A DNA stretch of 64,000 nucleotides from contig NC_042999.1 in assembly GCF_006345805.1 (NCBI RefSeq), positions 92,256,001-92,320,000 on the forward strand, read 5' to 3'. The stretch is from Octopus sinensis. Taxonomy: Eukaryota. Of this stretch, positions 1 to 56,900 are shown one piece after another. Positions within the stretch are counted from its first letter, which is position 1. Every line of letters begins with the position of its first letter. A program made the position numbers.

Positions 1-1520
1 ACATGAAGACCTGGGATGAGGTGGTGAAGCATGACATTTGAACATCAGGCCTCACGAAGGCAATGACAAATGACCAAGACCTTTGGTGATATGCTATGTT
101 TGAGAAGATCCAGCAAGCCAAGGGAAATCATAGCCGTGGTTTATGCCAGTGTCGCATAACCAGGCCATTGGACAATAAACTATGCTTGAGAAGACCTGTT
201 GAGTCAAGTAAAATCATTGTTGCGGCCAATGCCAGTACCACATGACTGGTACCCGTGCTGGTGGCATGTAAAAAGCACCATTTGAGTGTGGCTGATGCCA
301 GTCTCTCCACACTGGCTCCTGTGCCACTAGCACGTAAACTGCACCATTTGAACATGGTCAATGCCAGTGCCAGTTGACTGGCTCCCATGCTGGTGGTACA
401 TAAAAAGCACCATTCAAGCATGGTCACTGCCAGTGCTGCCTGACAGGCCCTTGTGCCAGTGGCACATAAAAAGCACCCTCTACACTCTTGAAGTGGTTGG
501 CATTAGGAAGGGCATCAAGCTGTAGTAACCTTATCAGACCAGATTGGAGCCTTCTGGCTTGCAAGTCCTCAGTCAAATCGTCCAACCCATAGTAGTATGG
601 AAAGTAGATGTTAAACAATGATGATGGTGTCTTATACATATATGAAACATAAATGGACACTGTGCTTAGACTTGGGTCCCATCCCTAAGCAGCTACATTT
701 TTCTGATGCAAATATAAAAATAATTGAAAATGTGCAAGCATCTGAAATCTGCAACACTTTTGGTTCAAATAAATTTCAGATAAGGGATTATCAGCATTGA
801 TATCATTGTCGAATTTACATTAAAATAGCAGCTCGTTTATTAATTAAAGGCAGTATGGTGCATATGCATAGGTCAATGACAGATAAAGGAGTTTCTATGC
901 ATAATGTTGATTAGTTGACAGCAACTTCAAAGTTTTGCTGGTGGTGGCTTATTCAAATCATGAGTTTAAAGCCAAATTTAACATTAGATTCTATACACAT
1001 GTCCTGAGTCTTTTCATCAATCAACACTCATAGATTTTATACATTTGAAACACTTCTCTTTAACTACATGCTATATATGTACACATACATACACACACAC
1101 ACACACACACATAATTCTTATGAATTAACCCTGAAATTGGAACCAATACGGTAATTATGGTTTTTTTAGAAATTTCTATCGGCTTGTTTCGAGACGCATA
1201 AATTATAATAGTTATTGACAATTTTGTCTATTTTTCGGCATATTTGGCATTGGACTTTTTCTTTTGCCCTTATTTTATAAGTTATTTATACATTTAACTT
1301 TTAAAGGTATTTTTTGATATGCTGGCGATTGATAAAATTTTTTTTAGAAAAAATTTTATCCTACATTAGTTATATATATGTATATCATCATCATCATTTA
1401 ACGTCCGCTTTCCATGCTAGCATGGGTTGGACGGTTCAACTGGGGTCTGGGGAGCCCGAAGGCTGCACCAGGCCAGTCAGATCTGGCAGTGTTTCTACAG
1501 CTGGATGCCCTTCCTAATGC

Positions 1521-1558
<38 letters not shown>

Positions 1559-53900: not shown

Positions 53901-56900
53901 AACTTCATCAATGAACTTTTGGAACATGCTGGCCGCATTGCAAAGACCAAATGGCATAGACAAGAATTCAAATGCTCCAAAAGACGTGGTGACGGCTGTC
54001 TTTGAAATGTCAGGGTTGACAGGGATTTGATGGTTTGTGCATACCAAGTCGATGTTAGAAAAATATCTTACAGCTGTGCAGGGCAGACAAAAAATCTTGC
54101 ACATTTGATAGGGGATAACAATCCATGATAGTGACAGTGTTAAGATGTCTAAAATCCCCAACTGGTTGAAAATCAGCTTCATTCTTCCTGGCCATGTGTA
54201 AAGGTGCTGCCCACAGGCTCCTGGAGGAACGAATAAGGCCTAGCTAAAGCATGTGCATGAATTCAGCCCGGGCAATCTGGAGTTTCTCTGGAGACAAACG
54301 GCAGAGTCAGGAAAAAATTAGAGGTCCCTTAGTCATGATGAAATGACTTGTGGAATGGGCTGGATTCAATGGATGAAATGGCAAATCAGTCAACTCTGGA
54401 AACAAAGCAAGTAACTGGTATTAAAAGTCACCTGAAGTAGCTACAAAGAAAGAGGGGCTCACAACAGGAACAGAAGAGTGTGCGAAATTTATTTTCATCA
54501 GAAGGAGAGTTACACCTGAGAACCTCAGTTTTGAAAGATTCATACATCATGTTCGATAGAGTTCCTGTTATCATATCTCGAACTAAAAGTGCAAGAGAAG
54601 AAGGAATGCTTGTAAATGCAATGTGGTGTTTGCTCTGAGCTGACTGAATATTAGAAGAAATGAAAAACGATTCTAGTTGCAAAAACCACATCTTAGCATA
54701 TCCATGATATTGAGGTAAGAGAAAATGACCCATGTTTAAATGATAATAAGAACAGAACACCACGAAGCTGGTTGAAAGAAATTCTGTTAGAAATAGCACT
54801 CAAAACATTCCAGTTGAAAGACGACATGACAAGCATCAAACTAGGAATTTTTTAGCAGCAGAGGATGAAATGGGAGAAGTCCTTGCCAATGGATAAAGAA
54901 CAAAACAATGGCCAACATATGGATAATCCGGGTAGGGTTGAGAGAAAGAAACGCATACCTGACACGTAGGAAAAACTGTTGTCCATATGAATTCCGGATG
55001 AAATTTTCTGGGTTTTTTTTCAATTGCAAGAAAATTCCCCTGGGAAGCTGTGTCTTTGAAAGTCCAAGTTGTAAATTCAGTCACAACAAGAGGAAAAAAT
55101 GATTTGCCACACCTGTTTGAAAAAGGTGCCAATTTTTTTTTTTTTTTTTGGTTGAGAAGACAATATGGTGACGAGAGAGACATCAGTGGTATCTAAAATG
55201 TAACCATGCATTTTACTGCTATTTTCAGCAAGTAGAGGACACTGTGTAAGAATGAACTGGTGTCTTGTGAAACATGAAGAAAACTACTAAGAAGTTGTTA
55301 GGATGAAATAACCACCAAGATTTGAACACAAAAATTTAGAAATACGAAACTAGACTGCAAAATATATCTAGTCCAGAACTTGGTGTCAGTATGTTGTCAA
55401 CTTTGAAAAATAAATATAAGTGAGAGTAAAATCTTCTAGATTTACAAAATTAATGTACCTTTGCAACAGAACAGCATAAACATATGGGAGATCTAGCTTA
55501 AAAAAATCTTACCTATATGTGGTGGAAGGATGAGATGCAAATGTTCATAGTCTGTTGCACCATCTTTGAGTAAAATGCTAAAATAGCTGTGTAAACTCAG
55601 AGGATCTGAAAGAAAAGATACAAAATACAAAATTAAAGAAGCAAAAATTATTTTGGCAAATAGAGACAAAAAAAGTATATTAACAATAAAAAATCATACA
55701 TACATAGAATTGGTTTTACATATGTTTTACATAGACACATATATGTATTATATATATGCATCATCACCCCCACCACAACCATCATCATCATCATCATTAT
55801 TTTAACATCTATTTTTCTATATATCTGTTTGTGTGTATGTGTGTGTGTGTGTAAGTATATATGTATAAATATATATCAGAATATATGCATATTTGACCAA
55901 TTCATGCAAGTATGGAAACACTTTAATAAAATTTTGAAAGTGGTGATGGTTATGATGAAAATGATGTTCTAGCTTTAATCAACATACATATATACATACA
56001 TACACATATATGTATGTATGTATATTGATTAAAACTAGAACATCATTTTCATCATCATCACCTTCAAAATTTTGTTATCAAAGTGTTTCCATACTTGTAT
56101 GAATTGGTCAAATGCACACACACACACACATATGCATGTATAAATATATCAATATAAAGTATAGATATACCATAAGCAATTTTTTTTTGTATTATGATGT
56201 ATAGCAAAAGAAGCACTTAGATTTATTCCTCGCTATCTAAATATAAATTGAAAAAAGCTTCATATATCCTCAAAATAATAAACAAATTCAAAAGTGACTT
56301 TGAACTTTGCTAGTGTAGGATGTAAAAGTATATCAGTTGTAAAGATAACATCTGAAAAGCAAACCAGTATGGAACGATAAAAAAAGAACATCATGCAGGA
56401 TGAAAATACTTATTTACTGTACAGAAAGTAATGTTTATGAAATATTCATTCTATATGTAGAGAGAAATGAAATAAACAATGAAGGTTATGTCCACAGCTG
56501 TCCTCTTATCTCCAGACAATGATAAGCCTGTCCATTCCTTTTATGGCATATCAACTTTAAAATATTTTTGATTCTTGAGATTGTCTTAACTTCTTATGTC
56601 AATGTGGTCTTAATTACCATCTGGTACTTAAGACAAATCTTTTATAGATCTGCATCATGGAGAGAGCCAAAATTCTTAAGGACTATACAATACCTGGCAT
56701 GTTAAATAGTTGGAAAGAAGTGTTTTCTAAACGCGGGTACTTCAAGCACTACTTACTGGGAAATTGGATCTCCCTGTTTGCTAGTTAGGCCTCTTCAGGT
56801 CTGTAAGAGTTGTTTTTTCCTCTGGTTTAAAGGAAATAATCAGTCCTCATTGACATTTTTTTGTTAAGATGTATTTCTCATTTTTTGAGCATTCCCTCAT

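What the first reader, a model, noticed from the sequence alone, without database searches (positions are those of the whole stretch)
1113..56116. Recurring local inverted duplications tied to (TA)n microsatellites
Seen: at least eight palindromic pairs made of unrelated sequences: 1113-1384/1552-1820, 11490-11549/14605-14664, 18155-18357, 28291-28350/28467-28525, 29081-29150/29168-29231, 30798-30873/31306-31383, 41564-41682/41883-42000 and 55886-55985/56023-56116. Most have a TA run at the centre or edge. Arm identity ranges from perfect to clearly diverged, so they differ in age. Some involve PLE ends, where inversion is known, but others copy non-PLE flank. Inference: a continuing mechanism in which a nick or break in self-complementary (TA)n folds back or switches strand and copies adjacent DNA in reverse, possibly triggered by retroelement endonucleases. 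This would seed dsRNA in introns.
Basis: partly seen in the sequence, partly recalled or inferred. Interest (0 to 1): 0.8.

Follow-up and report, generated by a model that had tools for sequence, protein, structure and literature searches.

The report
Local inverted duplications beside TA repeats
This repeat-rich stretch of a probable octopus genome holds about ten short palindromes, several of which look like nearby DNA copied backwards during repair of a break in a TA repeat, a mechanism known from yeast and human cells but not proven here.

Summary
All eight inverted pairs exist at the stated coordinates, with arm identity from 77% to 100%. None appears in 20 dinucleotide shuffles.

A pure (TA)5-or-longer run lies within 10 nt of an arm end in 5 of 8 pairs, against 0.67 expected at random. 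But ends of ordinary dispersed repeats are enriched too: 32 of 256, or 12.5%, against a 2.4% background. The TA link is therefore real but not specific to the palindromes.

Anatomy favours DNA-level local inverted duplication for P2 with its neighbour 14664-14719, and for P4, P6 and P7, and allows it for P1 and P8:
- In P4 and P6 one arm is a truncated copy of the neighbouring repeat, not a separate insertion.
- 7 of 8 pairs lack a target-site duplication.
- Two palindromes abut exactly, as if both ends of one break had folded back.

P3 may be a MITE, and P5 has no TA run.

The "PLE ends" claim fails. The element inside P2 is an endonuclease-type LINE. The one PLE-like element (56671-59865) touches no pair.

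Genome copy number, raw reads and empty sites could not be checked. Verdict: partly supported; natural examples of a known repair mechanism.

The parts
1113..1385 (+). P1 copy 1 of element A (left arm of P1a)
   Evidence: 97.4% over 273 nt to 1548-1820 in reverse. The outer end abuts (CA)n at 1081-1111.
1386..1523 (-). SINE-like insert at the centre of P1a
   Evidence: 97.8% identical to the 3' end of the LINE at 11550-11700. Its (ATG)n tail junction lies at 1385/1386.
1524..1552 (.). (AT)14 run at the centre of P1a
1548..1833 (-). P1 copy 2 of A (right arm of P1a, left arm of P1b)
1875..2063 (+). P1 copy 3 of A (right arm of P1b)
   Evidence: 88% to copy 2 and 89.5% to copy 1, with a 41-nt spacer.
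11490..11549 (+). P2 left arm (X)
   Evidence: 59 of 60 to 14605-14664 in reverse. No other copy in the window.
11550..14604 (-). 5'-truncated non-LTR LINE lying between the P2 arms
   Evidence: 847-aa ORF with RVT_1, E 1.9e-31. Relatives of about 1050 aa carry PF03372 plus PF00078.
14605..14664 (-). P2 right arm (reverse copy of X)
14664..14719 (.). P2b: perfect 56-nt palindrome with (AT)5 at its centre, directly abutting the P2 right arm
   Evidence: 28 of 28 arm positions pair.
18140..18373 (.). P3: nested foldback with a tandem duplication in its right arm; (TA)16 on its left side
   Evidence: TA/TAT on both flanks.
28290..28347 (-). P4 left arm: reverse copy of the first ~58 nt of the R copy on its right
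   Evidence: 57 of 60 to the right arm. It shares private variants absent from other R copies.
28348..28468 (.). P4 centre: (TA)n, (CA)n and (TA)n tracts
28469..28810 (+). R-family copy whose first ~58 nt form the P4 right arm
   Evidence: Alignment A1; BLAST.
29081..29231 (.). P5: old hairpin, 77%, 13-nt spacer, no TA run
30795..30880 (+). P6 left arm: internal fragment of R lacking both R ends, abutting (TA)6 at 30787-30798
   Evidence: 92-95% to the neighbouring R copy, 80-81% to R at 18015.
31288..31478 (-). Full R copy holding the P6 right arm (31297-31384), followed by (TA)22
41533..41562 (.). (AT)15 abutting the outer end of the P7 left arm
41563..41682 (+). P7 left arm (probably the derived copy)
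   Evidence: 120 of 120 to the right arm.
41882..42001 (-). P7 right arm, lying inside an 86-aa open frame 41904-42161(-)
   Evidence: Weak C2H2-type matches only, E 0.002-0.3.
55891..56113 (.). P8: palindrome, 85%, with an impure TA/TACA tract at its centre and (TG)n / (CA)n further out on the two sides

Best explanation
The set is mixed. Its core consists of P2 with its neighbour 14664-14719, P4, P6 and P7, and probably P1 and P8. These are DNA-level local inverted duplications, not transposon ends.

Inferred sequence of events:
1. A TA run breaks. (TA)n is self-complementary and can form a hairpin or cruciform.
2. The resected 3' end folds back on its own strand. If it pairs within the TA run itself, the result is a palindrome with TA at its centre (P1a, P2, 14664-14719, P4, P8). 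If it pairs at a short homology 40 to 420 nt away, the result is a pair with a spacer and with the TA run at the outer junction (P1b, P6, P7).
3. A polymerase copies 28 to 273 nt.
4. The extended end is joined to the other side of the break.

What the sequence shows directly: the arms, their boundaries, the partial-copy nature of the P4 and P6 arms, the lack of target-site duplications, and the exact abutment of the two palindromes at 14664. The break, the fold-back and the joining are inferred.

TA runs in this window are also general hot spots for repeat boundaries. The TA link therefore reflects TA fragility or targeting in general, not a property unique to the palindromes.
For: 1. Orientation bias. 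Among local pairs with a spacer under 1 kb and at least 35 non-microsatellite nt per arm, there were 15 inverted rows. Four were SINE/LINE pairs and one was TA-rich, leaving nine loci of otherwise single-copy or R-derived DNA. Of the 14 direct rows, only one (1113/1888, itself part of P1) is a non-tandem pair of otherwise single-copy DNA. Independent insertions should give both orientations equally.

2. Partial copies. The P4 left arm covers only the first ~58 nt of R. The P6 left arm is an internal 82-86 nt of R that lacks both R ends. Each matches its neighbouring R copy at 95% but other R copies at only 65-84%, sharing private variants. An internal fragment is not what reverse transcription from a 3' end produces.

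3. TA microhomology. The outer junctions of P4 and P6 fall at a TATAAT motif next to a TA run. In R that motif sits in a 10-nt self-complementary site.

4. Abutting palindromes. X | LINE | reverse-X ends at 14664, exactly where the perfect palindrome 14664-14719 begins, and both have TA at their centres. One break in a TA run, both ends folded back, and one joining would give this.

5. No target-site duplication at zero shift in 7 of 8 pairs, whereas the mariner-like control at 5056-5588 has (AT)5 on both sides.

6. Eight of the ten pairs (the eight claimed plus P1b and 14664-14719) have diverged arms, at 77-98% identity, which an assembly error would not give.

7. Precedent. Fold-back inverted insertions of 5-34 bp form at breaks in yeast (PMC11724301, abstract). 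Small inverted triplications with median sizes 148/160/148 bp have breakpoints near microsatellites (PMC13334657, abstract and section 2.4). Expanded TA-dinucleotide repeats form cruciforms (PMC13669725, start of abstract).
Against: - Genome copy number of the arms could not be measured. In a genome of gigabase size (my assumption; neither the species nor its genome size was established), a family with up to tens of thousands of copies would usually appear at most once in 64 kb. Single-copy status in the window is therefore weak evidence.
- TA contact is no higher at the arms than at ordinary repeat ends: 6 of 32 arm ends for the eight pairs and 11 of 52 for all 13 loci, against 32 of 256 ends of dispersed repeats.
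- Only 2 of 35 TA clusters carry palindromic flanks.
- Among 14 small hairpins with arms of 12 nt or more, only 2 have TA at the centre.
- P7, P1a, P2 and 14664-14719 show no microhomology at their outer junctions.
- P3 has TA on both flanks, like a Tc1/mariner-type MITE, and P5 has no TA at all.
- P1 (+ - + copies with a 41-nt spacer) also resembles the tandem/inverted insertions with 30-40-bp tails described for PLEs that target (TA)n (PMC8557442, passages).
- The arms are 28-273 nt long, much longer than the 5-34 bp reported for yeast fold-back insertions.
Confidence: 0.5

Rival explanations
1. The pairs are products of mobile elements. They would be foldback or MITE-type DNA transposons inserted at TA, or head-to-head and tail-to-tail insertions of short retroelements that target (TA)n. 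Because (TA)n reads the same on both strands, such elements could insert in either orientation.
For: - Two clear Tc1/mariner-type elements sit at TA or in (TA)n: 2914-4527 and 5056-5588.
- P3 has TA/TAT on both flanks.
- Ends of dispersed repeats are enriched about 5-fold at TA runs.
- The R and G families, a second SINE and the PLE-like element all abut TA runs.
- Naiad PLEs prefer (TA)n targets, and PLEs make tandem and inverted 5'-truncated copies with 30-40-bp tails (PMC8557442, passages). P1b has a 41-nt spacer.
Against: - 7 of 8 pairs have no target-site duplication.
- The P6 left arm lacks both ends of R, and the P4 and P6 left arms carry private variants of their neighbour.
- The strong excess of inverted over direct local pairs would require elements that are themselves palindromic.
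- No arm has another copy in the window outside its own cluster, apart from R.
- Rfam finds no hammerhead ribozyme.
- No Pfam GIY-YIG match in any of the 148 ORFs of 75 aa or more.
Confidence: 0.3
2. The same inverted copies arise without a break. A replication fork stalls at a TA hairpin, and the nascent strand briefly switches to the complementary or nascent strand and back.
For: - Template switching that creates reverse-complement copies and new hairpins is described in primates (PMC5453318, PMC10710096 and 10.1101/2021.04.15.439925; search listing and start of abstracts only).
- P1's + - + order resembles replication-derived small inverted triplications (PMC13334657).
Against: - The abutting double palindrome at 14664 is simpler to explain as two broken ends joined.
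- The three copies of P1 differ in age (97% against 88-89%), so they did not arise in one event unless the arms were later homogenised.
- The sequence alone cannot separate this from break repair.
Confidence: 0.2
3. The breaks are made by the endonuclease of the LINE/SINE family in this window. Aborted or aberrant retrotranspositions would then leave the palindromes.
For: - A SINE lies exactly at the centre of P1a and a LINE at the centre of P2. In both, the 3' junction follows TATAT.
- 5 of 19 3' junctions of this family begin with ATAT.
Against: - Later insertion into a TA centre that already existed explains the same facts.
- By my rough estimate (not a computed test), with about 5 TA-targeted insertions and 4-5 palindromic TA centres among about 37 TA tracts, two such hits are not surprising.
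- P4, P6, P7, P8 and 14664-14719 hold no LINE or SINE piece.
Confidence: 0.12
4. The pairs are assembly artefacts.
For: P7 (120 of 120) and 14664-14719 (28 of 28) have perfect arms.
Against: - The other eight of the ten pairs have diverged arms, at 77-98% identity.
- The structures are small and lie well inside the window.
- Raw reads were not available.
Confidence: 0.05

Closest known systems
Fold-back (snap-back) templated inverted insertions at double-strand breaks (yeast: PMC11724301; large human fold-back inverted duplications: PMC3907307)
   Same: An inverted copy of DNA lying next to the break, a spacer set by where the end folds back, no target-site duplication, and joining to the other end with little or no homology.
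   Different: Arms here are 28-273 nt, against mostly 5-34 bp in yeast and kilobases to megabases in the human cases. Here they are fixed germline structures of several ages, tied to TA runs. For PMC3907307 I saw only the search listing.
Small inverted triplications, DUP/INV/DUP (PMC13334657)
   Same: P1 has three copies in + - + order of 273, 286 and 189 nt with a 41-nt spacer. The reported medians are 148/160/148 bp with a 30-bp spacer, and breakpoints lie near microsatellites.
   Different: The P1 copies are unequal in age (97% against 88-89%). The second spacer holds a TA run and a SINE. The 6-bp inverted junction homology was not seen.
Short template-switch mutations that create hairpins (PMC5453318, PMC10710096)
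   Same: Reverse-complement copies of nearby sequence create new hairpins.
   Different: By recall, those events are mostly tens of bases long, and I recall no TA-run link being reported. I saw only the listing and start of the abstracts.
Tc1/mariner-derived MITEs (Stowaway-like) and foldback elements
   Same: Small palindromic units next to TA. P3 fits, and two true Tc1/mariner-type elements in the window show the pattern.
   Different: 7 of 8 pairs lack a TA or other duplication on both sides. The P4 and P6 arms are pieces of another repeat.
Penelope-like element insertions with inverted 5'-truncated copies and a (TA)n target bias (PMC8557442)
   Same: Inverted copies, a TA-run association, and 30-40-bp extra tails.
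   Different: No pair contains or abuts a PLE. The element inside P2 is a LINE with an apurinic-type endonuclease. The PLE-like element at 56671-59865 has direct terminal repeats and no inverted copy.

Membership tests
TIR DNA transposon / MITE | Terminal inverted repeats on a unit shorter than about 800 bp | tested here: met
   Met for all pairs except P2, which spans 3175 bp. This feature is what the pairs were selected on, so it carries little weight.
TIR DNA transposon / MITE | Target-site duplication flanking the unit | tested here: not met
   None at zero shift for P1, P2, P4, P5, P6, P7 or P8. P3 has TA/TAT on both sides. The control at 5056-5588 has (AT)5 on both sides.
TIR DNA transposon / MITE | Many copies in the genome with the same ends | not testable with these tools
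   No eukaryotic genome collection was open. Within the window, no arm has a copy outside its own cluster except the R family.
Penelope-like element insertion structure | Arms are 3' parts of a PLE (RT plus GIY-YIG element, pseudo-LTRs) | tested here: not met
   No sequence is shared between any arm and the PLE-like element at 56671-59865. The RT between the P2 arms has relatives carrying PF03372 endonuclease.
Penelope-like element insertion structure | Hammerhead ribozyme in the repeats | tested here: not met
   Rfam gave 0 matches at gathering score and no hammerhead among 60 matches at E up to 1.
Penelope-like element insertion structure | Insertion at (TA)n | tested here: met
   5 of 8 pairs touch a (TA)5-or-longer run. 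This is also true of many other repeat ends.
Fold-back inverted duplication at a break | One arm is continuous with older surrounding sequence and the other is a truncated copy of it | tested here: met
   Met for P4 and P6 through the R-family alignment. For P7 the right arm lies inside a longer open frame, which is weak evidence. Not decidable for P1, P2, P5 or P8.
Fold-back inverted duplication at a break | Short homology at the fold-back or joining points | tested here: inconclusive
   P4 and P6 show TATAAT next to a TA run. None is visible at the outer junctions of P1a, P2, P2b or P7.
Fold-back inverted duplication at a break | An ancestral or allelic site carrying a single arm | not testable with these tools
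   No related genome or reads were available.
Small inverted triplication | Three copies in direct-inverted-direct order formed in one event | tested here: inconclusive
   The order is met. Equal age is not: 97.4% against 88% and 89.5%.

The most novel reading that the evidence does not exclude
In this cephalopod-like genome, TA runs may act as recurrent break points. Fold-back repair at them would keep generating 30-270-bp inverted copies of whatever lies nearby: repeat fragments, unique DNA and possibly exons. That would be a transposon-independent, continuing source of long hairpins. Such hairpins could feed RNA editing (as editing-complementary sequences), small-RNA loci and new MITE-like elements.
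Probability: 0.3. Interest if true: 0.6.

Novelty: new member of a known kind. Interest (0 to 1): 0.4.

Why it matters
If the core reading holds, these are fixed germline examples of fold-back break repair, of several ages, in an animal genome. The arms are far longer than those in the yeast assays.

The lineage is known for heavy A-to-I RNA editing, which needs double-stranded RNA. A steady local supply of inverted copies would be one way such duplexes arise. For example, P7 would fold into a 119-bp perfect RNA duplex if transcribed.

The practical lesson is a control. TA runs here mark repeat boundaries of all kinds. Any genome-wide test must therefore compare palindromes with ordinary repeat ends, not with random positions.

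Tried and rejected
- Rfam at gathering score found nothing. At E up to 1 it returned only microsatellite-like miRNA look-alikes such as mir-297, and no hammerhead or tRNA-like match. ARAGORN found no tRNA.
- Pfam on 148 ORFs of 75 aa or more found only RT and RNase H pieces and DUF7041. There was no transposase and no GIY-YIG.
- The 86-aa frame across the P7 right arm had no homologue among longer proteins and only weak zinc-finger matches. I dropped the idea that P7 copies a known exon.
- The LINE protein search gave no species name; the best identity was 54%.
- The PLE-like ORF had no PDB match. Eight of its relatives, chosen from the 150 listed, had no Pfam match. Its PLE assignment rests on motifs read by eye and on the direct terminal repeats.
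- A test of TA against CA centres was too small to decide: 2 of 35 against 0 of 18. A census of small hairpins showed no TA excess, 2 of 14.
- A search for direct repeats that allowed shifted boundaries produced only matches lying inside the arms, which I did not count as target-site duplications.
Copy number in the source genome therefore stayed unchecked.
- Supplements of the cited papers were not opened.
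Full report
**Setting.** The window is AT-rich (GC about 0.31-0.47 per 2 kb) and has no N. It is packed with repeats.
- The only named protein match is an ORF at 57907-58644. It is 75% identical to the first 138 residues of a UniRef entry of Octopus bimaculoides. The source is therefore probably an octopod, but this rests on one hit.
- Nothing looked human.
- No host exon was identified, so "in introns" is unverified.

**The observation.**
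- All eight inverted pairs are present at or within a few bases of the stated coordinates. Arm identities are 100% (P7), 98.3% (P2), 97.4% (P1), 95% (P4 and P6), 93.6% (P3 core), 85% (P8) and 77% (P5).
- Twenty dinucleotide shuffles of the window gave no local inverted match of 40 nt or more.
- The tools added P1b (1640-1833 / 1875-2063, 88%, 41-nt spacer), which makes P1 three copies in + - + order. They also added a perfect 56-nt palindrome at 14664-14719.
- Two ordinary transposons were found: a Tc1-like element at 2914-4527 with terminal repeats of about 220 nt, and a deleted mariner-like element at 5056-5588 with 38-nt terminal repeats set in (TA)n on both sides.
- The largest inverted repeat in the window (12205-17348) is two copies of one LINE family lying head to head at 76% identity.

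**What the retroelements are.**
- The 847-aa ORF between the P2 arms has an RVT_1 domain. Its relatives of about 1050 aa carry PF03372 (apurinic-type endonuclease) plus PF00078. It is a non-LTR LINE, not a PLE.
- Its 3' end, with an (ATG)n tail, is shared with a SINE-like family that has 19 3' ends in the window.
- A PLE-like element does exist at 56671-59865. It has direct terminal repeats of about 410 nt at 80% identity and an RT-like ORF.
  - The ORF's relatives of 710-720 aa show, by eye, a cysteine-rich linker and a GIY-YIG-like motif after the RT. Pfam matched none of the eight I scanned.
  - By eye, each terminal repeat keeps one of the two recalled hammerhead core boxes. Rfam reports no hammerhead.
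  - This element lies 557 nt to the right of P8 and shares no sequence with any arm.

**The TA link.**
- The window has 39 pure (TA)5-or-longer runs (818 nt). It has 22 CA/TG runs and 3 GA/TC runs.
- Such a TA run lies within 10 nt of an arm end in 5 of the 8 claimed pairs and in 8 of all 13 local inverted loci. Random placement gives means of 0.67 and 1.05, and 0 of 5000 placements reached the observed counts.
- Ends of dispersed repeat matches more than 4 kb apart, which are ordinary repeat-family copies, are also near TA runs: 32 of 256 (12.5%) against a background of 2.4%. They are near CA runs in 12 of 256 against 1.1%.
- Arm ends score 6 of 32 for the eight pairs and 11 of 52 for all 13 loci, which is not clearly higher.
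- Only 2 of 35 TA clusters have palindromic flanks within 80 nt (14687 and 28412), against 0 of 18 independent CA clusters. P1a is missed by this test because a SINE sits at its centre.
- Among 14 small hairpins, only 2 have TA at the centre.
- The TA association is real against random positions. It is not shown to be specific to palindromes, nor to TA over CA.
- Several repeat families in the window (R, G, a second SINE, the LINE/SINE family, the PLE-like element and the mariner-like element) begin or end at TA runs.

**Anatomy that bears on origin.**
1. *Orientation.* Among local pairs with a spacer under 1 kb, nine inverted loci involve otherwise single-copy or R-derived DNA. Only one non-tandem direct pair does, and it is part of P1. 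Chance neighbouring insertions would give both orientations.
2. *Partial copies.* R is an old family of about 190 nt with four fuller copies in the window at 65-82% identity.
   - The P4 left arm is a reverse copy of only the first ~58 nt of the R copy on its right. It is 95% identical to that copy and shares variants that other R copies lack.
   - The P6 left arm is an internal piece of R that lacks both ends. It is 92-95% identical to the R copy 416 nt away and about 80% identical to another copy.
   - These are local DNA copies, not separate insertions.
3. *Junctions.* The outer junctions of P4 and P6 fall at a TATAAT motif beside a TA run. The outer junctions of P1a, P2, 14664-14719 and P7 show no homology.
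4. *Target-site duplications.* None at zero shift in 7 of 8 pairs. P3 has TA/TAT on both sides and could be a Tc1/mariner-type MITE.
5. *The 14664 junction.* The 60-nt arm X ends in TATAT at 11549. The LINE follows. Reverse-X then runs to 14664, where the perfect palindrome begins, itself centred on (AT)5.
   - Take the ancestral site to be X, a TA run, then Y. One break in that run, with both ends folding back on TA and being extended by 60 and 28 nt, and then one joining, gives exactly this order.
   - The LINE may have entered the TA centre later, or in the same event. The data do not say which.
   - P1a likewise carries a SINE of the same family exactly at its TA centre.
6. *P7.* Its perfect arms have (AT)15 at the outer end of the left arm only. 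The right arm lies inside an 86-aa open frame that continues beyond the arm. This weakly suggests that the left arm is the copy.

**Most likely mechanism.** A break occurs in or beside a TA run. The resected 3' end folds back, either on the TA run itself or at a short homology further along. It is extended, then joined to the other end. This accounts for TA at the centre in some pairs and at one outer edge in others.

**Precedent.** The mechanism is established elsewhere.
- Yeast breaks (PMC11724301, abstract).
- Small inverted triplications near microsatellites (PMC13334657, abstract and section 2.4).
- Template-switch hairpins in primates (listing and start of abstracts).
- TA-repeat cruciforms (start of abstract).

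**What stays open.** A replication template switch without a break cannot be told apart from the sequence alone. The main rival is a mobile-element origin. PLEs are reported to prefer (TA)n and to make inverted truncated copies with 30-40-bp tails (PMC8557442, passages), and P1 and P3 could fit that or a MITE. The rival cannot be excluded, because copy number in the source genome, raw reads and orthologous sites were out of reach.

**Verdict.** The finding is best filed as natural examples of a known repair outcome. An untested but interesting extension is that TA runs seed hairpins continuously in this lineage.

Noticed in passing
56671-59865: PLE-like retroelement with direct terminal repeats of about 410 nt (56671-57079 / 59448-59865, 80%) and an RT-like ORF at 57907-58644. 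Its right end abuts an (AT)n tract at 59866-59910. By eye, each terminal repeat keeps only one of the two recalled hammerhead core boxes. Rfam finds none.
   Followed up: partly
57907-58644: This repeat-derived ORF is 75% identical to the first 138 residues of UniRef A0A0L8FQN0_OCTBM, a PH / myotubularin-domain gene model. That model probably begins with a retroelement fragment.
   Followed up: partly
11550-14604 (-) and 15514-17868 (+): Two 5'-truncated copies of one LINE family (endonuclease plus RT type) lie head to head at 76% identity.
   Followed up: partly
227-477, 11712-11994, 49063-49280: The 3' untranslated part shared by the LINE and its SINE-like partner carries tandem arrays of 63-, 66- and 101-nt units.
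   Followed up: no
2914-4527 and 5056-5588: A Tc1-like transposon with terminal repeats of about 220 nt and a decayed transposase frame. Also a deleted mariner-like element with 38-nt terminal repeats sitting in (TA)n.
   Followed up: partly
30612-30786 and 42284-42462: A repeat of about 175 nt (called G here, 83% between copies). In both copies it starts directly after a TA run and has a short TA run at or within 12 nt of its end.
   Followed up: no
29246-30399: A unit of about 1.15 kb bounded by 51-nt inverted ends (86%), next to P5. Its interior has a long, low-complexity open frame.
   Followed up: no
52953-54800 (-): Fragment of an LTR-type retroelement, with RVT_1, RT_RNaseH_2 and DUF7041 matches.
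   Followed up: no
31692-31771: A piece of about 35-40 nt from the SINE/LINE 3' end sits between two (AT)n runs. It looks like a severely truncated insertion into a TA run.
   Followed up: no
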